Positions 1-21,520 of a DNA stretch of 21,581 nt are shown here, piece after piece (position 1 is the first letter of the stretch; each line of letters opens with the position of its first letter). The DNA is from a bacterium (GTDB lineage: Bacteria; SZUA-182; DTGQ01). A program made the position numbers and the translations under genes. The stretch covers positions 1 through 21,581 of the forward strand of contig JBFMGO010000104.1 of NCBI GenBank assembly GCA_040752695.1. The letters run 5' to 3'. The notes below the pieces were generated by a model, which had not been told where the DNA came from, ran no database searches, and saw only the letters and a list, made by a program, of their open reading frames with translations.

Positions 1-399
1 GTATTCGAAAGCTGTTGGGAACAAAGATTGCTCGAAACAGGAACGGTAAAAAGAGTCAAGAAATCTCGCTTAATCATGAGTGAAATTATGACTATAGTCA
101 TATACTTTCATTTCTCTAAATTTAGAACTTTTAAAGATTACTATGTAAATTTTATATGCGGCTCTCATCATTCAGCCTTCCCAAACCTGGTAAGTTATAA
201 CAGGTTTGTAGAGCTATCACAAGGGGTTATAGTTCCCTTGCTGTTTTACCTTCAAACCCAGAGGCTTGGCAAGATAACGGGAATTTCATTTATTGATTCC
301 CCCCCCTTAGAGGTGTGCCATCCCAGAAGGATTCACTCTCATCGTGTGCTTAAGGGCAGTGCCTAAAGAGGAAAATCCTCTGTAGGATGGTTCTATGGC
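1..399 (+). pseudogene. IS982-family transposase fragment (open at the window edge, internal stop at 364-366, truncated after WFYG)
   Basis: The frame is open from base 1 (VFESCWEQRLLETG...). It carries IS982-type motifs SEIMTIVIYFH..FRTFKDYY, FPNLVSYNRFVEL and TGISFIDS...VCH.RRI. After TAA (364-366) the same frame continues RGKSSVGWFYG (367-399), the conserved RGK.S.GWFYGFKLH motif, then breaks off. No terminal inverted repeat seen. Confidence 0.9.
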
Positions 400-453: not shown

Positions 454-3114
454 TCAAGAGGAGAAAATTCTTTCCAAAACTTCTTTAATCGGATAATATT
501 GTTGAACTACTTGCTGAATATTTTTCTTATAGCTGCTATTAATTCGATAAGCATTCTTAAAGTACTGGATAAACTGTGCAAAAGCGTCAAGGTAGGCATT
601 TTCGTCCTCTACCACTTTTGACTTCCATATCCAATAGCAGCCGACGGAAAAATTGATTTGTGCAGATTGAGGCATAAAATATACCGCCCGGTCAAACTCT
701 TTCTCGGCTGCGGCCAGAAAGGACCCGATATGGTCCATATTTTCTTCCTGTTTCCCCTGATCCAATGTGTGCCAGGCCAGCTTTAAATGGTAATAAGGAT
801 TGCTGGGATTTAGCAGTATAGCCCGTTCCAAAGCGAGTAAAGCATAATCATTCTCTGGTTCTCTTACAGCCGCTTTTTTTACTGCCGCTTCTCCCACCAC
901 CTCATCTCTTACCGCCACTTCTTTCACTGCATCTTCTCCTACCGCATCATCTCTTATCGCCGCTTTTTCTACTGTATCATCTCTTATCGCCGCTTCTTTT
1001 ACTGTATCTTCTCCTGCTGTATCTTTTCTTACCGCTATTTCTCCCACTGTCAACTCATATATCCCATCATTGCCCCCGTACATTCTTCCATCATCGCTCC
1101 CATGCTTTTCACCATTATCACGCCTATCATCATCATCATTATCACTACCGCTACCCTCATCATCTTCGCTCCTCTTATTCCTTTTGTTCCCTTTACTCCC
1201 CTGGTTGGCACCGTCAACCTTCAGTTTCTTCAACACAGCCAGAACCACTGGCTGTTCATATGTTTTTTGCATTTTTTGAGTATTTTGCATTTTTTGTATT
1301 TTTTGCTGATCATCCGCTGCGCTCTCTTCCAGGAGAGAGGCCAGCCAATAAAAATATTCCGCGTTTGTTGGTTCGATGGTGATAGCTTTACAAATTTCCC
1401 CTATGGTGGGATCTTTCTTCCTTTTTATTGTGCTGTCAGGCAAAGTGGGTACAAGCTTTTCAGCCAGATAAGGTTCCCTCACCAGCATCAGCGCATAGCA
1501 GAACCCGGCCATGAGGAAGAGGGCCAGGGGCCATTGAAGCCAGACGGGAAGATAAAACGTCAATTTTTTCTGTTCTTCGTTTTTCCTCTCCCTGCTGTGC
1601 TCACCGTCGGATGCAGGATCTTCTTCCCCTCTGCTTTGGTGATGATACGTCAGGGCCGCCTGAGTAACGCCGACCGCTATGCTTAAAAGCAGGGCATTGG
1701 CCGGAATATGCATATTGAAGTCTGTAAGACTATGCAGCGCAAGAGAAGTGATGGCTCCCATGCCTCCCAGGCCAATGCCGACGCTCAGGCTGTTTTTCCT
1801 TTTCTTCCAGAGAAAGAAAAAGTAGCCCAGACAAAAGAAAAGAAAAAAGATGCCCAGCCCTAAGCCGACAAGGCCCATTTCAGCAGCCAATTCCACCCAA
1901 TCATGGTGTGCATGGTCGATGACCCATTTATCATCTTTCGGGTCCTGATATTTAGGGTAAGCCTTTTCAAAGGTCCCCCAGCCAGTGCCCATAAGAGGGA
2001 AGTCTCTCACTATGCCCAGGGATGTCGTAGCAAAACGGACTCTTATCTGGGCATCATCACTCAATTTCTCAAACCGCTTCAATGTAGCACTCATGCCTGT
2101 TAAAAGCCCATACCCCAGGGCAATGAGCACGATAGCCACTCCTGCCAGTGCGTACCTTTTCACCTTGCTCCGAAAGAGCAGGAAAACACTCATGAGGATA
2201 AAGGCAACAGCGAGAGAGAGAATGCCTCCCCGAGAGCCTGACAGAAGAAGGGCAAGGAACATGATGGCAATCAAAAACATCAGCAGTATTCGCTTGGCCT
2301 GGTCGTGATCCTCTATGTTTAGGTTTAAAAGAAACCCTCTGATCCCGCCTACGGCGATGCTCCTTTGGGTATACCCCTTCCTTTTACCGGCCATGGCCAC
2401 CAGGAGCCCAAAGGACATGGGGATAGTTATCTCCAGTAATCCCGCCAGGTGATTTCTGTTAACGTAGGTGCCGGTTGCAAATCCGCCGTACCAGATGTTC
2501 TGATACCACAGGATGAAATCACACTTTCCCAAATACATCAGTATTCCATAGATAGCCTCAAATGAACCAATCAGGATAAAGGGGAATACCAGCGCAGTAA
2601 TCTTTTCTCTGTTATCTGCCCAGTTTATGATCAGCCAAAAAGCTCCCATGTAGGCCAGTATTTTGAAAAGGCCGATCTTAAAGCTGTAGGGACAGATAGA
2701 TAAGGTGACGAAATCCGGTACTTTCCCCAGAGCAGACTGATACATCCCGAAGGTTTCCGGAGAAAAAGTTTTCACCCATGTGGCAGGCAAGGGCAAGGAC
2801 TGAAGAATGAGCAGGCCAAGAAAGGCCAGAGCGAAAAAATTCAAAGGGCTCTTTCTGAAAGAAAGCTCTATCCTCTCGACCCATCTCCTGTCCGCCCCAC
2901 CCTGTCGTCGACCACTGGACTCCCAGTCAGGCGCAGCAGGGACTCCCCCCCCCTTCCATCTGCGGCTTTTAAAGACCTGCTTCATCAGCAGGCACAACCA
3001 CAGAACCAGAACCGTAATCTCCATCAGAGTGAATGGAAAGATGTGCACAGCTCCAAAGGCCAGAGGGCAGTAGATAATAAGAAAAATAAGACCGAATTTT
3101 ATAACTCTATCCAA
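454..3114 (-). CDS. O-antigen ligase (Wzy_C/WaaL-like) family membrane protein with C-terminal TPR-like region and low-complexity repeat insertion
   Basis: 886 aa with many hydrophobic segments. Motifs GTYVNRNHLAG, LSGSRGG, PLMGTGWGTF and HAHHDWVELAAEMG. TPR-like segments AITIEPTNAEYFYWLA, LERAILLNPSNPYYHLKLA and FDRAVYFMPQSAQINF. TTG start preceded by GAGG. Confidence 0.85.
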   Translation of the reverse strand: MDRVIKFGLIFLIIYCPLAFGAVHIFPFTLMEITVLVLWLCLLMKQVFKSRRWKGGGVPAAPDWESSGRRQGGADRRWVERIELSFRKSPLNFFALAFLGLLILQSLPLPATWVKTFSPETFGMYQSALGKVPDFVTLSICPYSFKIGLFKILAYMGAFWLIINWADNREKITALVFPFILIGSFEAIYGILMYLGKCDFILWYQNIWYGGFATGTYVNRNHLAGLLEITIPMSFGLLVAMAGKRKGYTQRSIAVGGIRGFLLNLNIEDHDQAKRILLMFLIAIMFLALLLSGSRGGILSLAVAFILMSVFLLFRSKVKRYALAGVAIVLIALGYGLLTGMSATLKRFEKLSDDAQIRVRFATTSLGIVRDFPLMGTGWGTFEKAYPKYQDPKDDKWVIDHAHHDWVELAAEMGLVGLGLGIFFLFFCLGYFFFLWKKRKNSLSVGIGLGGMGAITSLALHSLTDFNMHIPANALLLSIAVGVTQAALTYHHQSRGEEDPASDGEHSRERKNEEQKKLTFYLPVWLQWPLALFLMAGFCYALMLVREPYLAEKLVPTLPDSTIKRKKDPTIGEICKAITIEPTNAEYFYWLASLLEESAADDQQKIQKMQNTQKMQKTYEQPVVLAVLKKLKVDGANQGSKGNKRNKRSEDDEGSGSDNDDDDRRDNGEKHGSDDGRMYGGNDGIYELTVGEIAVRKDTAGEDTVKEAAIRDDTVEKAAIRDDAVGEDAVKEVAVRDEVVGEAAVKKAAVREPENDYALLALERAILLNPSNPYYHLKLAWHTLDQGKQEENMDHIGSFLAAAEKEFDRAVYFMPQSAQINFSVGCYWIWKSKVVEDENAYLDAFAQFIQYFKNAYRINSSYKKNIQQVVQQYYPIKEVLERIFSS
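861..1055. repeat. Degenerate 15-bp tandem repeat, 13 units, in frame in the ligase gene (5-aa units such as DDTVE, KAAIR, EDAVK, EVAVR)
   Basis: Units read off at a 15-bp period, e.g. ctcttatcgccgctt at 951 and 981. A near-perfect 30-bp doublet lies at 946-975/976-1005. Confidence 0.9.
1261..1305. repeat. 9-bp degenerate tandem repeat encoding QKIQKMQNTQKMQKT
   Basis: tgttttttgcattttttgagtattttgcattttttgtattttttg. Confidence 0.75.
2945..2953 (-). repeat. G9 homopolymer in the 5' part of the ligase gene (codons K-G-G-G)
   Basis: The plus strand reads gact-ccccccccc-ttcc. Confidence 0.85.
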
Positions 3115-3181
3115 GGGGGATTCCTCAAACTCGCCAAGGGGGGATTGCTCAAACTCGCCAAGGGGGGATTGCTCAAACTCG
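3111..3181. repeat. Three tandem copies of a 23/24-bp unit spanning the upstream stop codon, RBS and downstream start codon
   Basis: ccaagggggattcctcaaactcg (3111-3133), ccaaggggggattgctcaaactcg (3134-3157) and ccaaggggggattgctcaaactcg (3158-3181). Confidence 0.95.
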
Positions 3182-5770
3182 AGCTCTTATACCGGGAACT
3201 CCTTCGAGTTCGACGACAGGCTCGCCTTGAAATGGCATATCTTCGCTGAGCAACTGGGGTTTATATTCGGGCACGATCTCCCACAGTTTTAATTGTATCC
3301 CTCGGCGGTCGTATCTTCTGGCCAGGGTGAGCAGTTCCTCGATTTTGTTTTCCAGATCGCGGAATGATTTTCCTTCTCCTTCAGCACCGTTGCTTCTTAA
3401 GACCATGAGCTTCTCATGGGAGGTAGAGACAATTCCCTCTCCCTCAGTGATAAGCTCCTCATAGAGTTTTTCTCCCGGCCGCAAGCCGGTGATGTTGATG
3501 CGGATATCTTTGTCAGGCTCAAGCCCCGACAACCGGATCAGGTCTCTGGCCATATCGAGGATCTTGACCGGCCTGCCCATTTTCAGGATATAGATTTCTC
3601 CGCTTTCCCCCATAGCTCCTGCCTGGAGCACAAGCTGCACTGCCTCACTGATGGTCATAAAGTAGCGGGTAACCTCAGGGTGAGTTACGGCCAGCGGCCC
3701 GCCGCGGGCAATCTGTCTCTTGAAGAGCGGAATGACACTGCCAGCGCTGCCAATCACATTCCCGAATCGAACCGCCATGATCCTGGTCGAGGGGGTCGAT
3801 GAGGCGGTTATTGATGAAATAGACGATGCGGATGAAGTCGATGATGTGGATGATGTCGATGATGTGGACGATGCAGATGGAGTAGTCGATGCGGACAGCG
3901 TGGATAATGTGGAGGATGGAAGAGACGATGCGGATGAAGTCGATGATGTGGATGATGCAGATGGAGTAGTCGATGCGGACGGCGTGGATAATGTGGAGGA
4001 TGGAAGAGACGATGCGGACGACGTGGGTGATGCGGATGGAGGAGACGATGCGGATGACATGGACGATACGGACGATGTGGATGGAGGAGACGATGCGGAT
4101 GAGATGGATGATACGGACGATGCGGATGGAGAAGACGAGGCGGATGACATGGACGATATGGACGATATGGACGATGCGGATGGAGGAGACGATGCGGATG
4201 AGATGGATGATACGGACGATGCGGATGGAGGAGACGATGCGGATGAGATGGATGATACGGACGATGCGGATGGAGAAGACGATGCGGATGACATGGACGA
4301 TATGGACGATGCGGATGACATGGATGATGCCTTTTTCGATTGGGCTGATAGAGGCGATACAGATGCCCGCCTTGACGAGGGTGCTCCCTGATCTTCCCTC
4401 TTTGACTTTGCCGCCAGTTCTCTATGCTTGAGCAGCAGGATAATCTCGGCTACCCTTTTGCTTGCACCCATTACATTGGTCGGCCTTACCGCCTTATCCG
4501 TGGAGACCAGGACAAACCTTTCGGCTTTTACTTCCACTGCCGCTTCCAGGACGTTTTTGGTCCCCAGGATATTGTTATACACTGCCTCCCAGGGATGGAC
4601 TTCCATCATGGGAACGTGCTTATAGGCCGCGGCATGGAAAACGACCTGAGGTTTGAGCTGATTGAAAATTCCCCTAATGAACGCCGGTGTCGTTACCGAC
4701 CCCAAGATCGGGGCGATCCTCTGCTGAGGGAAAAGGTCCTTTAATTCCATTTCGATATCGTACAGGCTGCTTTCCGCCCGGTCCAGCATGACCAGAAGTT
4801 TCGGCTCGAATCTGGCTACCTGACGGCAGAACTCAGAGCCGATCGACCCGCCGGCACCGGTTATAAGAACGCATTTGCCTTTCAGGTAATCGCCGATCAT
4901 CTCCATGTCCAGTTCAACCTGCCCTCTGCCCAGAAGATCAGCGTAAGAGACATCCCGAATCCTCGATATGCTCACCTTATCGTCAATCAACTCCCCCATA
5001 CCGGGGATGGTCTTGCAATTGACACCGGTTTTCTGGCAAAGATCGATGATGCGGCGCATCTCCTCTGCCGTGGCTGAAGGGATGGCGATAATGATCTCGT
5101 CAATGCTCAAGCCCTCGACCGCAGAGGTAACCCCCTGGACGGTATCCAATACTTTAACCCCATGAATGGAGCGGTTGATCCTTTGAGGATCATCGTCGAG
5201 AAACCCTACTACCTTATAGTGTATCAATTCTTTATTATCTTTAATCTCCCGCAGGATCTTCTCTCCTGCACCACCGGCTCCGATTATCAGCACTCTTTTT
5301 TTCTTCTTGCCGCCAGTTCCATTCTTCCCCCATAAACAAAAGGGGAACCCCTCCTTTTTCATGGAAGAAAACCAGAGTCTGATCGCTACCCGGAAACCCC
5401 CGATCAAGAAAATGGTAAGAAGAGCGTCTATAAAGAATACCGACCGGGGAAATCCCTCAAGTCTGACCGTAATGGCAGCGAAAGTAACAATGGACAGTAA
5501 ACTGGCCAGTGATGCCCTGATGATATTCTCCAAATCCTCCAGCCCTGTGTAGCGGCACATTCCCCGATAGAGGCCAAGGTAATAAAAGATGGTAACTTTT
5601 AACAGGAGGATCGGGGCCAGTGTTCTCCTGAACAGGATGTATTCTGCATGGGGAAACTCCAGGTCGAAGCGAAGGAGGAATGATCCGGCATAAGAGGCGG
5701 TAAACAGCCCTATATCCACGAGGAAAAGAATGAGAAAGTTCTTATTGAACTTTTGCTTCGAATTCAGCAT
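3173..5770 (-). CDS. pglF: Membrane-anchored UDP-GlcNAc 4,6-dehydratase (PglF/CapD/WbpM/WbgZ family) with a large Ser-rich in-frame insertion
   Basis: About four N-terminal hydrophobic helices, an IIGAGGAG domain, TGAGGSIGSE, FHAAAYKHVPMME, STDKAVRPTNVMGASK (T-M-K catalytic variant), VRFGNVIGSAGSVIPLF and GLRPGEKLYEEL. AGGAGG lies 10 nt upstream of the ATG. Confidence 0.95.
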   Translation of the reverse strand: MLNSKQKFNKNFLILFLVDIGLFTASYAGSFLLRFDLEFPHAEYILFRRTLAPILLLKVTIFYYLGLYRGMCRYTGLEDLENIIRASLASLLSIVTFAAITVRLEGFPRSVFFIDALLTIFLIGGFRVAIRLWFSSMKKEGFPFCLWGKNGTGGKKKKRVLIIGAGGAGEKILREIKDNKELIHYKVVGFLDDDPQRINRSIHGVKVLDTVQGVTSAVEGLSIDEIIIAIPSATAEEMRRIIDLCQKTGVNCKTIPGMGELIDDKVSISRIRDVSYADLLGRGQVELDMEMIGDYLKGKCVLITGAGGSIGSEFCRQVARFEPKLLVMLDRAESSLYDIEMELKDLFPQQRIAPILGSVTTPAFIRGIFNQLKPQVVFHAAAYKHVPMMEVHPWEAVYNNILGTKNVLEAAVEVKAERFVLVSTDKAVRPTNVMGASKRVAEIILLLKHRELAAKSKREDQGAPSSRRASVSPLSAQSKKASSMSSASSISSMSSASSSPSASSVSSISSASSPPSASSVSSISSASSPPSASSISSISSMSSASSSPSASSVSSISSASSPPSTSSVSSMSSASSPPSASPTSSASSLPSSTLSTPSASTTPSASSTSSTSSASSLPSSTLSTLSASTTPSASSTSSTSSTSSTSSASSISSITASSTPSTRIMAVRFGNVIGSAGSVIPLFKRQIARGGPLAVTHPEVTRYFMTISEAVQLVLQAGAMGESGEIYILKMGRPVKILDMARDLIRLSGLEPDKDIRINITGLRPGEKLYEELITEGEGIVSTSHEKLMVLRSNGAEGEGKSFRDLENKIEELLTLARRYDRRGIQLKLWEIVPEYKPQLLSEDMPFQGEPVVELEGVPGIRARV
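3788..4331. repeat. Hierarchical tandem repeat (9-bp base unit, 45-bp and 84-bp higher-order units) encoding ~180 aa of Ser-Ser-X
   Basis: Perfect 45-bp copies at 4170-4214 and 4215-4259 and a near copy at 4071-4115. An 84-bp period links 3870 and 3954. Base units include gacgatgcg, gatgatgtg and gacgatatg. Confidence 0.97.
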
Positions 5771-6637: not shown

Positions 6638-7819
6638 TTACCGTAATAATTCCCTTACCGCCTCGACGACCCGCGCCTGATCTTCATCAGTCATTCTGGT
6701 GAAAAGCGGCAGGCTCACTGCCTTTTGATACGCGAGAAAAGCGTGAGGGAAGTCCATCGGTTCCAGATTATAGGTATTACTCCAATAAGGGTGCAAATGA
6801 AGCGGAATAAAATGAACGCTGCACCCTATGCCCCTTACCGCCATTTGTTCGATGAATTCCTTACGACTGATCCTTACCGATTCATCCAGCCGAATGACAT
6901 AAATGTGCCAGGCATGCAAATCTCCACGGCGAGGATGGGGCGGAAGCTGCAAAGGCAAACCAGCCAGTTCCGCATCATATTGCTCAACTATTCGCATTCT
7001 CTTCTCCTGGAAGTTCCAAACCTTCTTTAATTGATGAATTCCCAGGGAGGCCGCAAGGTCCGTCATGTTATATTTAAACCCAGGGGCAATCACTTCATAA
7101 TACCAGGCTGGCTTGGTCGAAGAATACCGGTCAAAGGCATCGCGGCTGATCCCGTGCAGCCGCATCACCTTGCACCGGTCTGCAATCTTGCGGTTGCAGG
7201 TCACGACCATTCCGCCTTCGCCCGTGGCCAGGGTTTTATTTGCGTAAAAGCTGTATATGGTTGCGTCACTTTCCAGCGTCCCCACCAGCTTGCCGTTATA
7301 GGTTGTCGGTAGCGCGTGAGCAGCATCTTCCACTACAGCCAGCCCGTGGTGCCTCGCTATATCAACAATAGCGTCCATATCGCAGGCAAGCCCTGCAAAG
7401 TGCACCGGAATAATTGCCCTGGTGCGTGGCGTAATGGCTGCTTCAATCTTCGAGGGGTCAATATTGAAAGTGGCCGGATCTATATCGACAAAAACCGGCC
7501 TGGCCCCTAAATACCGGATAACCTCGGCAGTGGCGGTAAAGGTGTATGGCGTCGTGATAACTTCATCCCCAGCACCGATGCCAAGAGCCTCCAACCCCAG
7601 GTGTAAACCCGCAGTTCCTGAATTGACTGCAATCGCTTCCACACCATTGCCAAGAAACTCTGCAAAATTCCGCTCAAAAAGTTTGGTCTTAGGCCCGGTA
7701 GTGATCCAGCCTGACCGCAGAGAATCAACTACTTCCGCGACTTCCTCCTCGCCGATGTCCGGCACGAAGAAAGGCAGGAAACCAACTGTCCCTGTTGATT
7801 TTTCTTTGACTTCTAACAT
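6638..7819 (-). CDS. DegT/DnrJ/EryC1/StrS PLP-dependent sugar aminotransferase, WbgX-like
   Basis: [47 protein letters not shown] and [13 protein letters not shown]. The start was moved from 8008 to the ATG at 7819 (393 aa), which has AGAGGA upstream; the extra 63 codons have no family features. Confidence 0.93.
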
Positions 7820-7821
7820 TT

Positions 7822-7853
7822 TGTGTAATCCTCTTTTATGTGTAATCCTTCTT
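7822..7853. repeat. 17-bp-period direct duplication of the RBS region of the aminotransferase
   Basis: tgtgtaatcct at 7822 and 7839. The minus strand reads aagaAGGATTACACAtaaaagAGGATTACACAaaATG. Confidence 0.7.
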
Positions 7854-8090
7854 GGTGTTCTTAAGACATAAATATATAAGCCAATATCGCTCCCTTGAGT
7901 ATTCCTTGTCTTGAATGACTGTCTTATTTCTTGATAGGCGTTTCTTACCAGTCGATCATCATTTGTCCTAAGCGACCTGCTCCGAGTTTTAATTTTTACC
8001 AATTCCACATCACTGATTCAGGTAATAGTGAACATACTGTCAAAAAGTTATTACTCAATATCCACTGCTACATTGGGTCTCTTTCTATTG

Positions 8091-8735
8091 TCAACTTTCT
8101 GTTTTATTCCTGCCAGGGTGGATAAGATACTCATTCATAGCGCGCCCTTCAGGCGTTACGTAAGATCGACTAAGGCAAAATCCTAACTTCTGATAAAATT
8201 GATTAACACGATCATTATGGTTTTTATCAGTTGTTAGGCATACGGAACTGATACCTCGGTTAATCAATTCCTGGTTAAAAGCTTCCACTAACTGCCTTCC
8301 AATCCCCTTGCCCTCATATTCGGGTCGCACAGCAATAGACATGAGACAAGCTTCCGCTGATGCTTGCTGTGCTTCTGATGGCTTCCTTAGTGCCCTTAAC
8401 AACCTGGGAGCAATACGAGGGCACCTCAGCAGTGCCTTGAGCGATGCAAAGGCAAACGCCCATTTTTGTCTTTTAATAAGACGCTTATAGAAACCACATT
8501 GATTAGTCACTCCAGCTATAAACCCTTCAATTTGATCGTCTAAAAAGGCGCCTAAAATGATGCCGTCAGGCTCATTACAAATACCTTTATAAAGCAATAA
8601 CAAAAAATCTTTTCCCAGGAAGGTAAGGAAAAAATTCGGAAAGCTTTTGATATGAATATCAACAACTTGTGGTAAATCGTTCAATAAAACCGACTTAATA
8701 GCCTCACTTAATTTTGGATAAGAATATTCACTCAT
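8091..8735 (-). CDS. GNAT-family N-acetyltransferase
   Basis: Acetyl-CoA motif LMSIAVRPEYEGKGIGRQL and N..VNQFYQKLGF. The ATG at 8735 overlaps the upstream TGA (ATGA), so it is preferred over the TTG at 8753. Confidence 0.9.
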   Translation of the reverse strand: MSEYSYPKLSEAIKSVLLNDLPQVVDIHIKSFPNFFLTFLGKDFLLLLYKGICNEPDGIILGAFLDDQIEGFIAGVTNQCGFYKRLIKRQKWAFAFASLKALLRCPRIAPRLLRALRKPSEAQQASAEACLMSIAVRPEYEGKGIGRQLVEAFNQELINRGISSVCLTTDKNHNDRVNQFYQKLGFCLSRSYVTPEGRAMNEYLIHPGRNKTES

Positions 8736-9955
8736 TGGACAGAATGGGCACAATCTCTTACTGAATTTCTAGTTTCTAATTTTATATTTTTGTTTTTCAA
8801 TAGGTTTATATACAAATCCCACGTTTCACGAAACATCCGATCAATCGTATAGCGCTCTACAACACGTTGTCTCGCAGCTCTCGCACACTTTTGAGCAAAC
8901 TCAGGGTCCTGCACAAAGCGATTGATGGCCTGAGCGATATGTTCCGGTGACTTCGGTGGAATTGTTAAACCCGTTACCTGATGTTCAATAAGTTCTGCAT
9001 TGGCTGGAATGGAAGTAGTGACAATCGGCCTGGCGGAAGCCATAGCTTCAAGCAATGAGATGGACAGACCTTCCCATAAGGAAGGATTAACGAAAATATC
9101 GAGCCCTGCTAACAAGGAGGGGATATCCTGACAGAAACCGAGGAAACGGACCTGATCGGTCAGTTTCAAAGACTGAACAAGGGTTGCCAATTTCAGGCGG
9201 TCTGGACCATCGCCAACAAGTACTAGAGTAAATCGCCTGTCCTTTAAAATTGTCTTTAAAACCGCCATAGCACGAATCAATGTTTCGTTGTCTTTTTGCG
9301 CAGATAAACGGCCTGTATTACCGATTATCACATGATCAGTGGATATCTTTAATCTTTTGCATAATGCCTCTCTCTCAACAGCAGTATTACCCGTTTTCAT
9401 GAATGGCTGTGGTTCGATTCCGTTACAAATGGTCACTAATTTGCTTTGAGGGGCAATACGAAGCTTATGTGCCTGACTGTTGACGGCGTGGCTGACACAA
9501 ATCGCCTTTGTGGAGGCTAGAGTGGCTAAATATTCCAAGGGTGTATAAAACAGCCGCTCCCCAAGGGTAGAGTAGTCGTTCACCGTCCACCCTGCCTGAT
9601 GGTTGAGTATCACTGGAACTCCGCTCATACGTGCAGCGATTCTGCCGAGAAAGCCGGGAGTTGCTGTATAGGTATGGACTACATCGTAAGATGCATGGCG
9701 AAAAAGCCTCATTAATTTGATAAAGGCTTTTCCATCTGTCATTGGTTTAATGTCTCGGGGAATATAAATATCTTCGCGTATTCGTACTCCCTTTATCTTT
9801 CGAATTTCACGGATTGTGACAGCATCCGTGCTCAATACTTCAACCTGGCATCTTTGATCTAACAAGTACTTACACCACTGAATGATTAAGTAAGTGGCAC
9901 CACCATATTTCGAATCTCCAACGATTTGTAACGTATTCAATATTGTTTCTTGCAT
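8732..9955 (-). CDS. GT4-family (GT-B) glycosyltransferase
   Basis: YGGA, DVVHT, ICNGI, GRLSAQKD, VGDGP and PSLWEGLSISLLEAMASARPIV (E-X7-E). Confidence 0.95.
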   Translation of the reverse strand: MQETILNTLQIVGDSKYGGATYLIIQWCKYLLDQRCQVEVLSTDAVTIREIRKIKGVRIREDIYIPRDIKPMTDGKAFIKLMRLFRHASYDVVHTYTATPGFLGRIAARMSGVPVILNHQAGWTVNDYSTLGERLFYTPLEYLATLASTKAICVSHAVNSQAHKLRIAPQSKLVTICNGIEPQPFMKTGNTAVEREALCKRLKISTDHVIIGNTGRLSAQKDNETLIRAMAVLKTILKDRRFTLVLVGDGPDRLKLATLVQSLKLTDQVRFLGFCQDIPSLLAGLDIFVNPSLWEGLSISLLEAMASARPIVTTSIPANAELIEHQVTGLTIPPKSPEHIAQAINRFVQDPEFAQKCARAARQRVVERYTIDRMFRETWDLYINLLKNKNIKLETRNSVRDCAHSVQ

Positions 9956-10056
9956 ATTCTTTCGACTTTTATATTGGTAGGATATACTTCAGATTAAGAT
10001 AGTTACATATGTTAGCTGGATACTTCACGATAAGAAAAGGGATAAGAGTACCTAAA

Positions 10057-11268
10057 TTATTTTTCTGAGCCTTTATGCATTTGTTTCAATCTTTGTTCCA
10101 GCAATATCGCGACTTGATTAATATCATGCTTCTGCTCAATATAGCGGCGGCCATTGGCTAGCATCTCAGCTCTCTGCCCAGGATCTCCTTTTGCGATAGA
10201 AACTACACCTCGTGCAAATTCGACCGGATCATCTGCGATCCACAGGTGTTTACCATGTTGGACATCAAGCCCCTGGCAGGCAAGAGCGGTGGCAACTGTC
10301 GGGATCCCAAGCGCTAGCTGGGTTATCACTCTGCCAGAAACGCCGCTAGCAATCACCATCGGTGCAATAGCTACCGATGCTTTTTGTAGCTCCTCCCGAA
10401 CATCTTTTATAAAATCCACCGTTTCTGTACGGGGCGACTTTTTAATATATTGTTCCAAAGGAGAGTTTGGATTAACATTAACAACACGGAATCGTGCCTG
10501 CGGCCAAAGGGACAACACATGCGGATATACCCTGTCGAGGAACCATCTTACTCCGGCGGCGTTTTTATAATAGTCAGCAGGGCCTATGAATACAATCGGT
10601 TCATTGCCATCTCCAGGTAATATGTTAAATGGGTACTGTTTTAGATTAATCGCAAGTGGCACAATGCCAACTTCGCACTCAGGCTGATGACAACGTACAA
10701 GTCCTCGGTCATGTTCCGATAAACAAACTGTCTTTGTTTGCCGTATAGTACGAAATTCATAAGCTTGCATGCGTTTTGATTCAATCCATGCGCCCAGCTT
10801 TATGAACCATGAATGACTGGTTTTAACGAGCAATTGGAGCTTCTGCGCCTCAATATCGTGAAGGTGTAGCAAAACTGGTATACCTAGCCGTTCAATCATC
10901 TTTGCATATTGTGCAACTTGTATATGTGCTAAGAAAGCAACTTCTGGAGGCTCTGAAGAAGAAAGAATCTGTAAAATCTTATCCCTTAGCTGTGGGATGC
11001 CATACTTGGCGATCGCAAAAGGGGCTCTTTTCCGAATAGAACGAAATGTCGTATCAAACGACTTTAATTGGACCAATGAACCAGGAAGATCGTGGATAAT
11101 AATGCGTTTTGATTGCAAGGCTGACAGTCCATTACCACTATTCGTAAAGCAAACAACAAAAACCTTATGTCCTCTTTGTGCTAATGCACTAATCAGCTCA
11201 CAGTGGTATTCTGAAGCTGTGTTTAAGGGAGGATAAAACAACCATGGAACTACATAAAGGATTTGCAT
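10057..11268 (-). CDS. GT4-like glycosyltransferase with an atypical donor-binding motif
   Basis: ILYVVPWLFYPP, VFIG...YYKNAAGVRWFLDRVYP, APMVIASGVSGRVITQLALGIPTVAT and HLWIADDPVEFA. Confidence 0.8.
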   Translation of the reverse strand: MQILYVVPWLFYPPLNTASEYHCELISALAQRGHKVFVVCFTNSGNGLSALQSKRIIIHDLPGSLVQLKSFDTTFRSIRKRAPFAIAKYGIPQLRDKILQILSSSEPPEVAFLAHIQVAQYAKMIERLGIPVLLHLHDIEAQKLQLLVKTSHSWFIKLGAWIESKRMQAYEFRTIRQTKTVCLSEHDRGLVRCHQPECEVGIVPLAINLKQYPFNILPGDGNEPIVFIGPADYYKNAAGVRWFLDRVYPHVLSLWPQARFRVVNVNPNSPLEQYIKKSPRTETVDFIKDVREELQKASVAIAPMVIASGVSGRVITQLALGIPTVATALACQGLDVQHGKHLWIADDPVEFARGVVSIAKGDPGQRAEMLANGRRYIEQKHDINQVAILLEQRLKQMHKGSEK

Positions 11269-11442
11269 TTTAGTAAAATCCCCTTTAACATTCGTTTAGC
11301 TGATTGTTATGAGCGAAATCTTATCTAGAAAGGATGACTTGCGATTTGTTCAAATACTTGCCTGAACTTAGGAGGGCTTGGGGAAGAGAAGATGTTTTTA
11401 CCTGAAAACAATAGTCTTCAGTAGCGTTAACATTATGCTGGC

Positions 11443-12684
11443 TCATTTAACATTACTGATCTTTGTTTTTTTCGGCATAACCTTTTTAGCTATTTTTGTA
11501 AGAACGAACACTCGCCAGCTTAAAGCATGTGTCTCAGGTCCGGAAAATTTAGCCGCAATCATTCTAGTGAAACATATTTCAGCTATATCTTCGTATTGTT
11601 TTAACTGTAAATGCTTGATACCTGCCGCCAGAGAGTTAAATACCCATGCATCACTGCGAATCATGTAATTATTACTTATTGGTTTACCTTCTGGGGTGAG
11701 TACCGGCGTAAACCAGCGGCCGTTCCATGAATACTTAATTATCCAATCGATTATTTCTCTTGCTACACGATGGTACATCTCTTTGCGTTCGGGAATGACC
11801 ATCGCTGCTTCTAGTAACCCAGATGAACAAGAACATAAGCCCCATACATGGATATTGCCCTGAAAGAATTCTGGTGAGTTGGTATAGGGAACAACACCAT
11901 CCCGCTCATGAAGTGCTACGATGTGATCCGCTGCATCACGAATAATCCGTTGTTGGACACTGACGGGGCAAACCTGGTGGGCCAGACTATGCATCTCCAC
12001 CTGCTGCATCTGGTGATAATAATCTATCTTCCTTCGCTTAGTTTCATCTAAGTCGCATCGGGATTGGTCATTATAATACCAGAAACGCCCTGGTAGAGAT
12101 GGATCTGTTGCCATAACCTTATCCATATATGTAACCATACCATGATATATCTGGTAAAGGTCCGGAGTGTTTGCAATACAACCTAAATAACGACCTAAGC
12201 CTCCCACAGCAAATGAGATGCCATTATAAACCATGAGTTCTGATGTAGTATATGGACTATAAGGGATTATCCAGTCCTCTTGCCCCAGAGGACGAGCGAA
12301 GTGTTGAATCCACTTGGTGGCCGCTTCAGCAGCGCTAAGAACCGATTCAATAGGAAAAAGCCGCCCATATTCTGATAATGCTAACAACCCCACAAGTTCA
12401 GGCGATGTGGATTGGCCTTTGCGGTGTCTCAAGCCAAAATTAAAGTCATAACCGATATCAAACCCTCCATCTCGCCTCTGGATATCCTGCAATAAATGAC
12501 AAAGCTGATCGGCCCTATCACGCCAAATTTGTGAAGATGTTGCTTGCCAGAAACGCAGACATCCCAGCAGACATTGGTAAACTGTCTGTGAACAGTGCCT
12601 CACGTAAGGTGAACGTAATATCGTTTGCTTTGCTATATATTTCAGATTCCATCGGATGTTATGATAATCAGTTAAGGCCATCAT
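11443..12684 (-). CDS. Hypothetical protein, probable (alpha/alpha)-barrel (six-hairpin glycosidase / prenyltransferase-cyclase-like fold)
   Basis: 413 aa, soluble, with repeated helix + G-x-aromatic segments: LLQDIQRRDGGF, YMDKVM...GRFWYY, HIVALHERDGVVPY and WIIKYSWNGRWF. The ORF is solid; the fold is inferred. Confidence 0.6.
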   Translation of the reverse strand: MMALTDYHNIRWNLKYIAKQTILRSPYVRHCSQTVYQCLLGCLRFWQATSSQIWRDRADQLCHLLQDIQRRDGGFDIGYDFNFGLRHRKGQSTSPELVGLLALSEYGRLFPIESVLSAAEAATKWIQHFARPLGQEDWIIPYSPYTTSELMVYNGISFAVGGLGRYLGCIANTPDLYQIYHGMVTYMDKVMATDPSLPGRFWYYNDQSRCDLDETKRRKIDYYHQMQQVEMHSLAHQVCPVSVQQRIIRDAADHIVALHERDGVVPYTNSPEFFQGNIHVWGLCSCSSGLLEAAMVIPERKEMYHRVAREIIDWIIKYSWNGRWFTPVLTPEGKPISNNYMIRSDAWVFNSLAAGIKHLQLKQYEDIAEICFTRMIAAKFSGPETHALSWRVFVLTKIAKKVMPKKTKISNVK

Positions 12685-12722
12685 ACCCCCACTCGTGTGA
12701 TGAACTTAAAATGTAAGGTATT

Positions 12723-14156
12723 CTACTGTCTTTGACATGTTGCATTCTGAGGAATCTTTGAGACAATGAATTGATATTTACCATTCGGCCGGCGAGGTAT
12801 ATCGTCGACAAGTTCAATTTCAATCTTGATCTCCTTACCAACATGCTTTCTTATGTTGTGTTCAAGCTCAGGATAATGGATTGAATTATCCCATCTCTCG
12901 GTAGGTATAACCTTAACATGCAATAGCCCTATATCTTCCTGAATATATTGGGCAGACTTAATACTATCATACATAGTCTTCATTGGTTGGTTCATGGAGC
13001 CACACCCAACCCTAAATCCTTCAGGCGTTACGATGATATCATCGTCCCGTCCCGTAAGAGAAAGGAGTTTCTGATGGCTTCGGCCACAATTGCATTTTGG
13101 GCCGAACTCGCTCACTATACCGACGTCACCGACTGCGTATCTAATGAGAGGCATTACAAAATTTTCTAGATGGGTACTGAGCAATCTACCTTCTCGACCT
13201 GTTACAGATAAACCATCATTATCAACAGACTCTACGACGCAGCTTTCTACATTAATGTGAAATCCATCGCCCTTACTGCATTCATTTGCAGTTAAACTAT
13301 CCTCGTTTTGTCCATAGTGATTAAACACTTGACAACGAAACGCTTTTTCTATTGTAGCTCGATATTGAGGAAAGAGGGTATCAGATGAAGTCAATATTGC
13401 TTTAAGGGGAATTGTAATCCCTCTTTCTACTAGTCTCCTTGCTAAAAGATAAACACCCGATGCATAGCCTCGGATATAATCCCCTTTAAATTTGGATATA
13501 TCTTCGATGTACCAGTCCAATACCTTATCACTCATATTGGCTGATGAGATACTGAGACGATTTCTCGTTAATGATAGACATCCCCGGGTATTTTCCGGGG
13601 CATTTACCCACCGTTTTGGTGCGCCACCACAATAAATCATTTTGTCCTCAAATAGCTTGATCCCCGCAAAATCTGACCACCGCCACCAATGGGCATTTCT
13701 AACCCCAAGCATGTGTTTATCAAAAAAGAATCGCATCGGAGTACCAGTAGAACCACCTGTAAGTATGACTTCAAGTTGAGACCGATCGGTTACCGTGTCG
13801 CATATGAAGTCATCTAAACGTGAACGTATTATTTCCTTAGTTAAAATTGGCAACTTCTGCAAATCTTCTATTGTCTTGATATCGCTTGGCTTGAGTTTCC
13901 GCTCTTCGAAAACACTGCGGTAATATCGAGTATGCTCATAAGCATGTCTAATCATTTTGCTCAATTTATCCAACTGTATTTGTTTTAACTGATCCGCTGG
14001 CAACCACTCAGAGGCTAAGAGCTTAGAATGATAATCTTTTTGGGCAGGCGTTGGCTTCGCTATAGGATCATTAGGTAACAACCTTAAACACCACCCTATC
14101 ATGTCCTTAGCAATCTCAGGCGAAGCCCAATATAAATCTTTCATTTTTGTTATCAT
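12723..14156 (-). CDS. CapK / phenylacetate-CoA-ligase-like adenylate-forming enzyme
   Basis: DLQKLPILTKE, P-loop TGGSTGTP, YGQNE, PLIRYAVGD, GRDDD and GKYQFIVS. The start was placed at the ATG at 14156, just after GGAGG (14161-14165), rather than at the TTG at 14234. Confidence 0.9.
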   Translation of the reverse strand: MITKMKDLYWASPEIAKDMIGWCLRLLPNDPIAKPTPAQKDYHSKLLASEWLPADQLKQIQLDKLSKMIRHAYEHTRYYRSVFEERKLKPSDIKTIEDLQKLPILTKEIIRSRLDDFICDTVTDRSQLEVILTGGSTGTPMRFFFDKHMLGVRNAHWWRWSDFAGIKLFEDKMIYCGGAPKRWVNAPENTRGCLSLTRNRLSISSANMSDKVLDWYIEDISKFKGDYIRGYASGVYLLARRLVERGITIPLKAILTSSDTLFPQYRATIEKAFRCQVFNHYGQNEDSLTANECSKGDGFHINVESCVVESVDNDGLSVTGREGRLLSTHLENFVMPLIRYAVGDVGIVSEFGPKCNCGRSHQKLLSLTGRDDDIIVTPEGFRVGCGSMNQPMKTMYDSIKSAQYIQEDIGLLHVKVIPTERWDNSIHYPELEHNIRKHVGKEIKIEIELVDDIPRRPNGKYQFIVSKIPQNATCQRQ

Positions 14157-14364
14157 GACGCCTCCATTCCAATTAGTATATTTACATCTATACGCGAACG
14201 CATCGCCGGTTATTAAATAATTATAGAAAAGCAATCGACTTCAACCCACATTTTACATTTTCCATTTAACTTACTGAAAATGCTCTAATTAATTTTGGTC
14301 AATTTTTCTGTCTTTGATAAATACCTTTAATAAAAACATCTTTACCTTAAGGGTGTTTTCTCAC

Positions 14365-14901
14365 TTACCTATCTTTTTCTACCCAACCAATAATTTTTGC
14401 TGGGACACCACCAACTATAGCCCCATCTGGGACATCTTTTGTGACAACAGCGTTCGCTGCCACCAGGCAACCTTTGCCAATAGACACACCAGACGTAATT
14501 GTAGCATGGGCAGCGATCCATGTTCCTTTCCCAATCCTTATTAGTCCGGATTTACACTTTTTAGCAAACCGAAAACTTCCCCCTTCACAAAGGTGTTCTC
14601 CTGCTACCATTGTTACATAGGGTCCCAGCATAACCTCATCGTCAAAGATTATTCCACCCCCTAATCCATTAAGCCAGCACCCGAAACCAATGTATACATC
14701 CTTGCCGAATTCAATCCGGCACGGTGTCGCCAGCTTTGCATGTATAGATATTTGTAAACCTTGGCCACATCGCTTCAGGAATGGGCGATAAAGAAGTCCT
14801 CGCAACCGGTTCCCCAGATAATAGTCTGGCCACAATCCTGCAAAAATTTCTATGGTATGATAACCGATTTCTTTCAGCGCCTCCACTATTAGATTACCCA
14901 T
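14365..14901 (-). CDS. Hexapeptide-repeat (left-handed beta-helix) O/N-acyltransferase
   Basis: IGKGTWIAAHATITSGVSIGKGCLVAANAVVTKDVPDGAIVGGVPAKII. Confidence 0.93.
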   Translation of the reverse strand: MGNLIVEALKEIGYHTIEIFAGLWPDYYLGNRLRGLLYRPFLKRCGQGLQISIHAKLATPCRIEFGKDVYIGFGCWLNGLGGGIIFDDEVMLGPYVTMVAGEHLCEGGSFRFAKKCKSGLIRIGKGTWIAAHATITSGVSIGKGCLVAANAVVTKDVPDGAIVGGVPAKIIGWVEKDR

Positions 14902-14948
14902 TATCCGAGGCCCTCATACCAACACTTTCTTGATAAAAACCGTACGTT

Positions 14949-16433
14949 TCATCCTATAGGTCTGCTTTCTAAGGTGCGCTGTCTCAACATCTGTAAAATT
15001 TCTTGTGGATATAAACCAACTCCTACAACCAAGCTTATTATCATGACAGACAAAACTGCCAAACGCGACATGAGTGCCAAATCGCTCACCTGACAGATAA
15101 AAAGCAAGGCTATTGTCACTAATATTTGGCTTATCCAATACTCTCGATCCGGTTTTCTCCGACCAGGAAGCCTGAAATATATAATTGAAAACAGGCCGAT
15201 CTGTGCTGATAAGATGCCAGCCCCCTTTGCTAAAATTATCCCAAAGACACCCAGATTCCTGATTAAAAGAAAGCTCAAGACAATTTGTATCCCTATTAAG
15301 GTAATGCTATTGAAAAAAAAGTATTTCGTTTCTTGTTTTGCCAGGATCAGCATCGAATTGATATTTCCCAAAGCACCTATGTTTAAAATCGCACTCAACC
15401 AGATAAGATCCCGATGATGATTGGCAAAGGCAGGGCCAAATATAGCAGTAACTTCACGAGACAGGAATATAAAAATCAGTACTGGTATAGCGGTTACTAA
15501 GATCGATATCTTACACATTTTATGGTAAAGCAGTTGAACTACATCTTCCCGGTCATTAGCCATCAAGTAGCTGAAACTACTAACCATCAATCTACCAATC
15601 TCTTGGGGTAAAAAACGAACGAGTTGTGCCAAAGTTAGCAGTTGGAAATACACTCCCAGCCGGGAAACATCACATGCTCCAGCGATAAAGAGTTGATCGA
15701 CTGTTTCATATGCAAAGGTGAGTATAGTGTTCATATGGATATAGAAACTGTAGCTCCAGAAACCTCTAGGAAGCCATGGCCGTAAGCGTAATGTCAACTC
15801 TTTTCGCGAAATCACTATTCCTATAATAATGCCTAACATATTGGAAAAAAAAACCCCTGAACCAAGAATGGCAAGGGGATGTCTACGCAACAACTGGGGT
15901 GCCACAAAAAAGAAAACCATAGCGAGAGGAGCAATGAATATTAACTGTATCCGTTGGACGATAGCTGAAGCACGATATGCTAACAATCCTGTCAGGATAT
16001 AATTAGCTGCATAGTTCAAAGTTACAACTGGTGTTATCAAAAGTAATAGGTAGGTTAATGGGGTGTCTAATTTTCTATGAAATAATAACTCAAAAAAGTG
16101 AGGATAACGGAAAAGGAAATATATCCATATTATCATCATTGCTAAAATAATATAAAAATAACCCATTACAAAAGAACCTTGCTTTTCAGAATCTTTAATT
16201 TTCGGCAGATAATATGATAAAACTGGCGCACCACCATACAAAACGAAGGTTGTTATGAAACTAATAAAAATAAGTACCAGTGCATAGACACCAAGTACGG
16301 ATCCGTCAGTATCCATACGCCCTAAAAACCAATTGCGGGCAAAGCACAATACAAGTCCAGACGTTGCAATCGAAACAGTCCAGATGCCGCCGCTACGGAT
16401 TTTTTCTCTTATATTGACAGTACTGCTTTTCAT
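14949..16433 (-). CDS. wzx: Wzx-type polysaccharide flippase (MOP superfamily)
   Basis: 494 aa with ~12-14 hydrophobic segments; LGVYAL, VDQLFI...LGVYF and NLGVFG; located within the cluster. Confidence 0.8.
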   Translation of the reverse strand: MKSSTVNIREKIRSGGIWTVSIATSGLVLCFARNWFLGRMDTDGSVLGVYALVLIFISFITTFVLYGGAPVLSYYLPKIKDSEKQGSFVMGYFYIILAMMIIWIYFLFRYPHFFELLFHRKLDTPLTYLLLLITPVVTLNYAANYILTGLLAYRASAIVQRIQLIFIAPLAMVFFFVAPQLLRRHPLAILGSGVFFSNMLGIIIGIVISRKELTLRLRPWLPRGFWSYSFYIHMNTILTFAYETVDQLFIAGACDVSRLGVYFQLLTLAQLVRFLPQEIGRLMVSSFSYLMANDREDVVQLLYHKMCKISILVTAIPVLIFIFLSREVTAIFGPAFANHHRDLIWLSAILNIGALGNINSMLILAKQETKYFFFNSITLIGIQIVLSFLLIRNLGVFGIILAKGAGILSAQIGLFSIIYFRLPGRRKPDREYWISQILVTIALLFICQVSDLALMSRLAVLSVMIISLVVGVGLYPQEILQMLRQRTLESRPIG

Positions 16434-16468
16434 GGAAATATCGGGAATGTCTTCAAATGATTAACTGA

Positions 16469-17773: not shown

Positions 17774-17813
17774 CGCAAATAACGTTGATTATAATACAAC
17801 TCTTCCTCTGTAA

Positions 17814-20119: not shown

Positions 20120-20143
20120 TAAATTAACGCCCTGTACAAATTT

Positions 20144-20160
20144 TTCAGGAAATTCCTGAA
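20144..20160. other. Perfect 8-1-8 inverted repeat in the intergenic gap
   Basis: TTCAGGAA-A-TTCCTGAA; function unknown. Confidence 0.6.
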
Positions 20161-20172
20161 GACTGTAAAAAG

Positions 20173-21433: not shown

Positions 21434-21520
21434 TTACGAATTACGGATTATACAAATCCATACAAATTTATACAGATTAATACAAATTGATATGGATTTA
21501 TACGGATTTATACGGATTAC
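21434..21520. repeat. Degenerate 10-bp-period tandem array (~8 units, consensus TACRRATTTA) upstream of the aminotransferase
   Basis: tacggatta, tacaaatcca, tacaaattta, tacagattaa, tacaaattga, tatggattta, tacggattta, tacggattac; preceded by ttacgaa. Confidence 0.85.

What the first reader, a model, noticed from the sequence alone, without database searches (positions are those of the whole stretch)
3788..4420. ~200-aa Ser-rich repeat inserted inside the catalytic domain of a PglF/CapD dehydratase
Seen: between the catalytic MGASK helix and the next conserved strand (TRIMAVRFGNV) lies ~210 aa of extra sequence. About 180 aa of it is (Ser-Ser-X)n built from a 9-bp unit, with 45-bp and 84-bp higher-order duplications. 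The frame and all catalytic motifs are intact. Known: in PglF/WbpM/CapD this link is a short surface loop of a cytoplasmic SDR domain, and long Ser-rich repeats are typical of secreted adhesins and linkers rather than nucleotide-sugar enzymes. Inference: this is a recently expanding intrinsically disordered loop. It may be tolerated neutrally, or act as a phosphorylation, glycosylation or interaction module on the first enzyme of the pathway. The perfect 45-bp copies indicate recent expansion.
Basis: partly seen in the sequence, partly recalled or inferred. Interest (0 to 1): 0.85.

Follow-up and report, generated by a model that had tools for sequence, protein, structure and literature searches.

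The report
Repeat-swollen loop in sugar dehydratase
A sugar-pathway enzyme of an uncultured bacterium carries about 200 extra, mostly serine residues in a loop of its catalytic domain; the same loop swelled with other repeats in a second species, and many core enzymes of this genome carry smaller repeat inserts, so it is most likely a tolerated floppy loop produced by genome-wide short duplications rather than a dedicated regulatory module.

Summary
Confirmed. ORF 3173-5770 (-) encodes an 865-aa PglF/WbpM-type dehydratase with intact TDK/MxxxK motifs, under purifying selection (dN/dS 0.10-0.16). The catalytic-helix-to-RFGNV span is 239 residues, against 30-46 in 117 scored homologues. The 180-codon core (3788-4327) is 58% Ser, built from a 9-bp unit with 45-, 84- and 144-bp duplications. 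AlphaFold keeps the PglF fold and leaves the insert unstructured.

It is not unique. A paralogue in this genome has an 87-residue loop there. A metagenome relative (L219) has a 235-residue loop of mostly different sequence plus a second 95-residue insert. Short-loop homologues nest between them, favouring independent expansions. Genome-wide, 414 of 2414 long ORFs hold short-period arrays; MurC, PriA and NrdJ carry inserts absent from 5 of 5 relatives.

Best reading: genome-wide 9-30-bp duplications, filtered for frame and polar residues, accumulate in permissive loops; this is an extreme case. A phosphorylation or interaction role is untested. Misassembly is unlikely, but no reads were available. 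The scan noted similar genome-wide in-frame repeat traits in other genomes before.

The parts
3173..5770 (-). PglF/WbpM-type membrane-anchored UDP-GlcNAc 4,6-dehydratase gene, 865 aa; Shine-Dalgarno-like AAGGAGG about 10 nt before the ATG
4838..4861 (-). NAD-binding glycine motif (aa 304-311)
   Evidence: several of its residues invariant in alignment A1
4490..4504 (-). STDKA, holding the Thr-Asp-Lys catalytic residues of PglF-type enzymes (aa 423-427)
   Evidence: motif definition from PMC8987622 passages
4457..4471 (-). MxxxK catalytic helix start (aa 434-438)
4391..4429 (-). extension of the catalytic helix (aa 448-460); the nearest homologues also have a 10-15-residue longer loop here than distant ones
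   Evidence: helix predicted to aa 461; homologue loops of 39-46
4328..4390 (-). non-repetitive start of the insert (aa 461-481)
3788..4327 (-). Ser-Ser-X repeat core, 180 codons, 9-bp unit with 45-, 144- and 84-bp higher-order duplications; predicted disordered
4169..4275 (.). perfect 45-bp-period stretch (exact 62-bp match at 45-bp offset), the youngest duplication seen
3755..3787 (-). conserved strand and RFGNV motif where the fold resumes (aa 662-672)
3720..4391 (+). Asp-rich 223-aa antisense ORF; judged a shadow of the repeat, not a gene
   Evidence: no Pfam hit; starts inside the conserved dehydratase coding region
454..3114 (-). downstream O-antigen-ligase/TPR gene with its own repeat-swollen loop (arrays at 860-1050 and 1263-1306)

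Best explanation
The insert is a real in-frame tandem-repeat expansion in the loop between the catalytic helix and the next strand of an intact PglF-type UDP-GlcNAc 4,6-dehydratase, and it most likely forms a tolerated, disordered loop produced by a genome-wide tendency to short head-to-tail duplication rather than a selected module. Inferred steps: (1) Duplications of about 9-30 bp arise all over this genome, probably by replication slippage. (2) In genes only units of 3n survive, and polar or small residues are favoured. (3) At this site a 9-bp Ser-Ser-X seed was amplified and then re-duplicated in 45-, 84- and 144-bp blocks. (4) The loop tolerates length, so it swelled separately in another species, and perhaps separately in a paralogue. 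(5) The enzyme is predicted to fold around the loop and to keep making the 4-keto-6-deoxy UDP-sugar for the adjacent aminotransferase and priming transferase of this glycan locus.
For: Intact motifs and purifying selection outside the insert: dN/dS 0.10-0.16 against 4 of 5 homologues, the fifth saturated. AlphaFold with a 94-sequence alignment: 10-residue blocks of the folded domain mostly pLDDT 72-98, insert mostly below 50, no secondary structure in it; best structural match PglF 5bjw/5bju, target TM-score 0.89. Same-site expansions with other sequences: paralogue G000:C62, 87 residues; L219, 235 residues in three different repeat blocks plus a second 95-residue Gln/Asn/Ser insert elsewhere in the domain. 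Short-loop P0003 and P0004 nest between this gene and L219 (SH-aLRT 98 and 97; this gene + P0003 at 99/97), so two gains beat one gain plus two losses. Genome-wide: 1468 short-period arrays (243/Mb) and 414 of 2414 ORFs of 300 aa or more hit, against 23/Mb and 4 of 262 in other-phylum dehydratase loci. Period is a multiple of 3 in 596 of 625 arrays inside long ORFs, against 203 of 536 intergenic. Intergenic units peak broadly at 14-23 bp. In 268 orthologue pairs within the family, 57 inserts of 10 aa or more are in G000 and 15 in the relatives. MurC, PriA and NrdJ carry inserts of about 30-75 aa absent from 5 of 5 relatives. Arrays are enriched in Q, G, P, S, T and depleted in W, F, I, C, L.
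Against: No reads, transcripts or protein data (not testable here). This insert is about 8 times the median coding array (497 vs 62 bp). Two separate expansions ended at nearly the same length (239 and 235), and all three swollen loops contain a Ser/Thr/Ala block on a 9-bp TCA-led unit; both facts are compatible with selection or a shared seed. pN/pS between neighbouring repeat copies is 0.49 genome-wide, not 1, so inserts are not fully neutral. Only 11 of the 57 orthologue-defined inserts overlap a TRF array. The density control is polysaccharide loci, not whole genomes, and the G000 count includes secreted repeat proteins. One congener has a similar overall array density (G001, 227/Mb) but a short loop in its dehydratase. 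No cause of the duplication bias was found.
Confidence: 0.7

Rival explanations
1. The loop arose by the same duplications but has been recruited. A roughly 200-residue Ser/Thr-rich disordered segment would act as a phosphorylation or interaction module, or as a spacer, that tunes the first step of the glycan pathway.
For: Two long expansions of 239 and 235 residues, and a Ser/Thr/Ala block in all three swollen loops. The 180-residue core has no aromatic, Cys or charged residue. Four Pkinase matches in the genome. Capsule enzymes are kinase-regulated in S. aureus (PMC6441080 passages). The Borg paper argues that such repeats are functional (PMC9879509).
Against: The closest homologues (79% and 82% identical) lack it. 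L219's loop is mostly other sequence, including a charged block, and L219 has a further insert elsewhere. Equivalent inserts of unrelated composition sit in MurC, PriA and NrdJ. In S. aureus, CapD itself was not phosphorylated by CapAB. Glycosylation of a cytoplasmic domain by the periplasmic ligase would be topologically unlikely (own knowledge).
Confidence: 0.17
2. The insert is slightly deleterious or disabling, and this copy is decaying under cover of its two paralogues.
For: The genome holds two further PglF-type copies, C52 (short loop) and C62.
Against: All motifs are intact, dN/dS is 0.10-0.16, the end branch (0.13) is like its insert-free sister's (0.11), and the gene sits in its own complete glycan locus. 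A very recent loss of function would not yet show in these measures.
Confidence: 0.08
3. The insert, or its length, is an assembly artefact.
For: The genome is a draft of 239 contigs with N gaps. No reads could be laid. The window's protein did not appear among the listed protein hits.
Against: The longest exact internal repeat is 62 bp, and the units are degenerate and keep the frame. The 20-mers of the core occur nowhere else in the assembly. An independent assembly (L219) and a paralogue show expansions at the same site. Assemblers tend to collapse, not invent, such arrays (own knowledge). The number of perfect 45-bp copies could still be off by one or two.
Confidence: 0.05

Closest known systems
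Campylobacter jejuni PglF / Pseudomonas aeruginosa WbpM (MxxxK UDP-GlcNAc 4,6-dehydratases; PDB 5BJU series; PMC8987622 passages)
   Same: Membrane-anchor N-terminus, TDK plus MxxxK motifs, fold (target TM-score 0.89), glycan-locus context.
   Different: About 200 extra residues where the PglF chain has a few (chain positions 174 to 179).
Borg amino-acid tandem repeats (PMC9879509; abstract and first part of the Discussion read)
   Same: Recent, independently formed tandem repeats; in ORFs nearly always 3n; disorder-promoting residues; homologues without repeats.
   Different: Here a bacterial chromosome, degenerate rather than perfect arrays, and inserts inside cytoplasmic core enzymes. Borg repeats are enriched in extracellular and membrane proteins of an archaeal extrachromosomal element.
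Transient low-complexity regions in prokaryotic proteins (PMC10120016, abstract and opening of the introduction)
   Same: Expansion of short repeats, attributed to slippage, that can temporarily affect ancestral functions.
   Different: A very long case inside a catalytic domain, recurring at one loop, in a genome with about ten times the array density of the control loci.
Ehrlichia ruminantium variable tandem repeats (PMC10710844 passages) and Plasmodium low-complexity regions (PMC5762703 abstract; inserts inside enzymes recalled)
   Same: A genome-wide bias to repeat expansion.
   Different: The Ehrlichia passage places the process in non-coding regions of a small reduced genome. This is a 6-Mb genome with in-frame inserts in core enzymes; Plasmodium is a eukaryote.

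Membership tests
PglF/WbpM-type UDP-GlcNAc 4,6-dehydratase | TDK-xn-MxxxK catalytic signature (Met in place of Tyr) | tested here: met
   STDKA at aa 423-427 and MGASK at aa 434-438; definition in PMC8987622 Table 1
PglF/WbpM-type UDP-GlcNAc 4,6-dehydratase | Extended SDR fold with NAD-binding glycine motif, Pfam PF02719 | tested here: met
   PF02719 E 9.9e-115; Foldseek best match PglF; PDB sequence match E 1e-81
PglF/WbpM-type UDP-GlcNAc 4,6-dehydratase | N-terminal membrane anchor region ahead of the catalytic domain | tested here: met
   Hydrophobic N-terminus aligned with full-length homologues and PF13727 at aa 68-256; no topology predictor was run
PglF/WbpM-type UDP-GlcNAc 4,6-dehydratase | Dehydratase activity on UDP-GlcNAc | not testable with these tools
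   needs an enzyme assay
Coding tandem repeat / low-complexity expansion (Borg-like aaTR) | Unit length a multiple of 3, frame kept | tested here: met
   9/45/84/144-bp periods; 596 of 625 arrays in long ORFs
Coding tandem repeat / low-complexity expansion (Borg-like aaTR) | Predicted intrinsic disorder | tested here: met
   pLDDT mostly below 50 and no secondary structure over the insert; low pLDDT also follows from having no aligned rows there
Coding tandem repeat / low-complexity expansion (Borg-like aaTR) | Absent from close homologues, independent origin | tested here: met
Coding tandem repeat / low-complexity expansion (Borg-like aaTR) | Perfect repeats, as in Borgs | tested here: not met
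   only a 107-bp stretch has a perfect 45-bp period; TRF matches 73-93%
Coding tandem repeat / low-complexity expansion (Borg-like aaTR) | Copy-number variation within the population | not testable with these tools
   no sequencing run was listed
Dispersed mobile coding repeat (Rickettsia palindromic element type; features recalled) | Same element present at many loci | tested here: not met
   20-mers of the core match only contig C104; other inserts have unrelated units
Serine-rich repeat adhesin / secreted linker (features recalled) | Exported location of the Ser-rich segment | tested here: not met
   the segment lies inside the NAD-dependent catalytic domain, which is cytoplasmic in this family (own knowledge)

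The most novel reading that the evidence does not exclude
In this uncultured lineage a genome-wide duplication bias has repeatedly turned one loop of the glycan-initiating dehydratase into a selected disordered module of about 200 residues. It arose at least twice from different repeats and converged on similar length and a Ser/Thr block. It would regulate the enzyme, for example through Ser/Thr phosphorylation or by spacing or tethering partner enzymes: a eukaryote-like disordered regulatory region born inside a bacterial catalytic domain.
Probability: 0.15. Interest if true: 0.75.

Novelty: new variant of a known kind. Interest (0 to 1): 0.42.

Why it matters
It shows that an SDR catalytic domain can apparently carry about 200 disordered residues next to its catalytic helix, and twice over. 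It also points to a bacterial lineage whose core enzymes gain in-frame repeat loops at a high rate, even though MutS, MutL and RecA are present and the TopA arginine known to matter is intact. That makes the lineage a natural system for asking how de novo tandem repeats arise (called unknown in PMC6954433) and when new disordered regions become functional. The three loop versions (41, 87 and 239 residues in one genome; 235 in L219) give a ready-made comparison. If the loop is neutral, the enzyme itself is ordinary.

Tried and rejected
Sequencing runs: none was listed, so length and expression stayed unchecked. The cluster-member look-up could not be made. The rest of L219's contig is not held as a genome. 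The single-sequence AlphaFold model was poor (pLDDT 41.7) and was not used. Antisense Asp-rich ORF as a gene: rejected (no family hit; begins inside conserved coding sequence); it shares wobble positions with the sense frame, so codon bias cannot decide it. Mobile or dispersed element: rejected. Cause of the duplication bias, not found: MutS and MutL motifs present; RecA present (my motif scans had missed it); PF00929 exonucleases not found in 12 of 13 genomes of the order, including repeat-poor ones, so not specific; one weak PF00817 match in a 165-aa frame in G000, none found in G001 and G002. TopA keeps the arginine pair equivalent to E. coli R168. The scan for G000-private TopA substitutions is invalid because at least two rows (G003, G005) were mis-extracted. 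The position of the C62 paralogue in the tree is unresolved. The PglF structure paper PMC6211297 is not held, so the loop's distance from the active site and dimer interface was not checked. The second protein search, with the L219 protein, was read only as a listing (lengths 582-812); loop lengths of its new entries were not measured.

Full report
Observation. The window is contig C104 of a 6.05-Mb draft genome (239 contigs, 96.6% complete) of an uncultured bacterium. The nearest protein hits are named only 'bacterium'. ORF 3173-5770 (-) gives 865 aa without a stop. PF02719 matches in two stretches that leave out the insert. The glycine motif, STDKA, MGASK and the resuming RFGNV strand are all present. 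They match the PglF/WbpM signature in PMC8987622 (passages read). The core of the insert, 3788-4327, is 180 codons: 104 Ser (all TCN), and otherwise only Ala, Thr, Pro, Ile, Leu, Met and Val. It has a 9-bp basic period, an exact 62-bp match at a 45-bp offset, and 84-bp and 144-bp duplications at 91% and 93%.

How unusual at this site. The motif-to-motif span is 239 residues. It is 30-46 in 117 of the 120 listed protein homologues (3 not matched by the pattern). It is 29-49 in 79 of 80 genome loci; one value of 52 is a pattern artefact. It is 30-49 in 77 of 80 metagenome loci, with 2 unscored and one at 235. The two closest homologues, P0003 (79%) and P0004 (82%), have 46 and 44. Neither this protein nor the L219 protein appeared in the protein-collection listings, so that collection may under-count such inserts. 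The DNA-level scans were partial samples (21 and 16 of 64 parts).

Structure and selection. With a 94-row alignment, AlphaFold gives the catalytic domain high confidence, extends the catalytic helix to about aa 461, resumes the strand at aa 663, and leaves the insert without structure, mostly below pLDDT 50. Part of that low score is simply the lack of aligned rows. Foldseek ranks the C. jejuni PglF structures first (target TM-score 0.89). Outside the insert, dN/dS is 0.10-0.16 against four homologues; a fifth is saturated. The gene lies in a glycan locus with a priming transferase, two DegT-family aminotransferases, glycosyltransferases, a flippase-like gene and ligase-like genes. That the enzyme supplies the 4-keto-6-deoxy sugar for this locus is inferred from family knowledge.

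Recurrence. The genome has two more PglF-type copies. C52 has a 41-residue span. C62, cut by the contig end, has 87 residues with a different Ser/Ala/Thr repeat. Metagenome locus L219 encodes a 990-aa relative with a 235-residue span built from three different repeat blocks, a second 95-residue Gln/Asn/Ser insert in the NAD-binding part, and an acidic tail. In a tree built without the inserts, short-loop P0003 is sister to the window's gene and P0004 is next, with L219 outside (SH-aLRT 98, 97; quick method, midpoint root, 16 rows). The C-terminal tree gave 99/97 for the first pair. Two gains are simpler than one gain and two losses. C62 is unresolved. It shares synteny and a weak DNA match (80% over 40 bp) with L219, so those two may share a seed. 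All three loops contain a Ser/Thr/Ala block on a 9-bp TCA-led unit. This is the main point in favour of selection or of a shared seed.

Genome-wide context. TRF finds 1468 short-period arrays in G000 (243/Mb), and 414 of 2414 ORFs of 300 aa or more hold one. In 574 kb of dehydratase loci from other phyla the figures are 23/Mb and 4 of 262. Samples of relatives gave 227/Mb (G001), 87 (G002), 97 (G004), 30-88 (others in the order) and 20 (class). Caveats: ORFs were called by length only, the control is not whole genomes, and G000's count includes secreted repeat proteins. Periods are multiples of 3 in 596 of 625 arrays inside long ORFs and in 203 of 536 intergenic arrays; the ORF definition itself contributes to this contrast. 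Intergenic units form a broad 14-23-bp peak, and units of 1-6 bp are nearly absent. In 268 orthologue pairs with five family members, 57 internal inserts of 10 aa or more were in G000 (35 genes) and 15 in the relatives (12 genes). In 72 pairs with more distant kin the counts were 3 and 1. Only 11 of the 57 overlap a TRF array. I picked 19 repeat-bearing G000 ORFs by eye and named them with NCBIfam. I tested three, MurC, PriA and NrdJ, and each has inserts of about 30-75 aa missing from 5 of 5 relatives. Between neighbouring repeat copies in 328 coding arrays, differences fall 286/307/451 on codon positions 1/2/3 (pN/pS 0.49), against an even split in 132 intergenic arrays. Coding arrays are rich in Q, G, P, S, T and poor in W, F, I, C, L. 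So the inserts appear to be filtered at the protein level, but loosely.

Mechanism. Shown: the repeat anatomy, intact motifs, recurrence at the site, and the genome-wide excess with its frame filter. Predicted: the fold and the disorder. Inferred: slippage-type head-to-tail duplication as the source. That loops longer than a few bases escape MutS is recalled and would fit the lack of very short units, but TRF's score threshold also disfavours them. No causal lesion was found. MutS, MutL and RecA are present. The lack of PF00929 matches is order-wide (12 of 13). TopA keeps the arginine whose change causes de novo tandem duplications in E. coli (PMC6954433 passages). I put 0.70 on a tolerated loop, 0.17 on a recruited module, 0.08 on decay and 0.05 on misassembly.

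Comparison with what is known. The enzyme is a PglF/WbpM member by motif and fold. The insert works like the in-frame tandem repeats of Borgs (PMC9879509: abstract and first part of the Discussion read), but it is degenerate and sits in cytoplasmic enzymes of a bacterial chromosome. It fits the view of prokaryotic low-complexity regions as transient (PMC10120016: abstract and opening of the introduction). Ehrlichia's repeat dynamics are described for non-coding regions (PMC10710844 passages). For Plasmodium I read only the abstract of PMC5762703. In S. aureus, CapD was not a CapAB substrate (PMC6441080 passages). Searches listed no paper on a long repeat insert in PglF/CapD or on this trait in such a lineage; the library lacks most subscription papers, and no supplements were read. 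Earlier scan notes (unchecked AI notes) report similar genome-wide in-frame repeats in other genomes and a repeat-swollen intergenic region in this one. They agree with my reading, which I had formed before consulting them. The lead to Ehrlichia came from e1-5068325.

Verdict. A real and extreme instance of a known kind of mutation: a new variant of coding tandem-repeat expansion, notable for its size inside a catalytic domain and for recurring at one loop. Interest 0.42. If the loop proved to be a selected regulatory module (probability 0.15), it would deserve 0.75.

Noticed in passing
window 454-3114 (-), arrays 860-1050 and 1263-1306: The O-antigen-ligase/TPR gene has a loop of roughly 165 residues in its C-terminal TPR-like region, against roughly 20 (G002), 60 (G000 C52 paralogue) and 80 (G001): a second recurrent expansion site (lengths read by eye from the alignment).
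   Followed up: partly
window 3111-3181: A 24-bp x3 array (95%) fills the gap between the dehydratase stop and the ligase start, overlapping both ends.
   Followed up: no
window about 6700-21400: The central glycan genes, mostly of lower GC, hold no TRF array. Genome-wide, the share of long ORFs with arrays rises from 1 of 19 at GC 0.35 to 141 of 544 at GC 0.55. This may reflect residence time of genes, or composition.
   Followed up: partly
L219 2-907 (-) and 5877-7586 (+): The neighbours of the L219 dehydratase also carry repeats: a short one in a CarA-like gene, and three inserts of about 35-55 residues in a gene syntenic with G000:C62, absent or short in G001 and G002. This species looks at least as repeat-prone as G000.
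   Followed up: partly
L022/L023 (G004) dehydratases: Gly/Asn repeats of different length after the catalytic domain in two near-identical paralogues.
   Followed up: no
window 1-366 (+): Contig-end fragment with a DDE transposase match, PF13612.
   Followed up: no
window 21442-21519: Intergenic 10/20-bp tandem array at the contig end.
   Followed up: no
G000 many contigs (e.g. C45, C37, C33, C3): Numerous Gly/Tyr/Leu-repeat proteins rank among the longest coding arrays; described in earlier scan notes.
   Followed up: no
L119 (G000:C72:17086-18981): One open frame matches both RsmG and RlmB-type rRNA methyltransferase models, with a repeat between them; a possible fusion.
   Followed up: no
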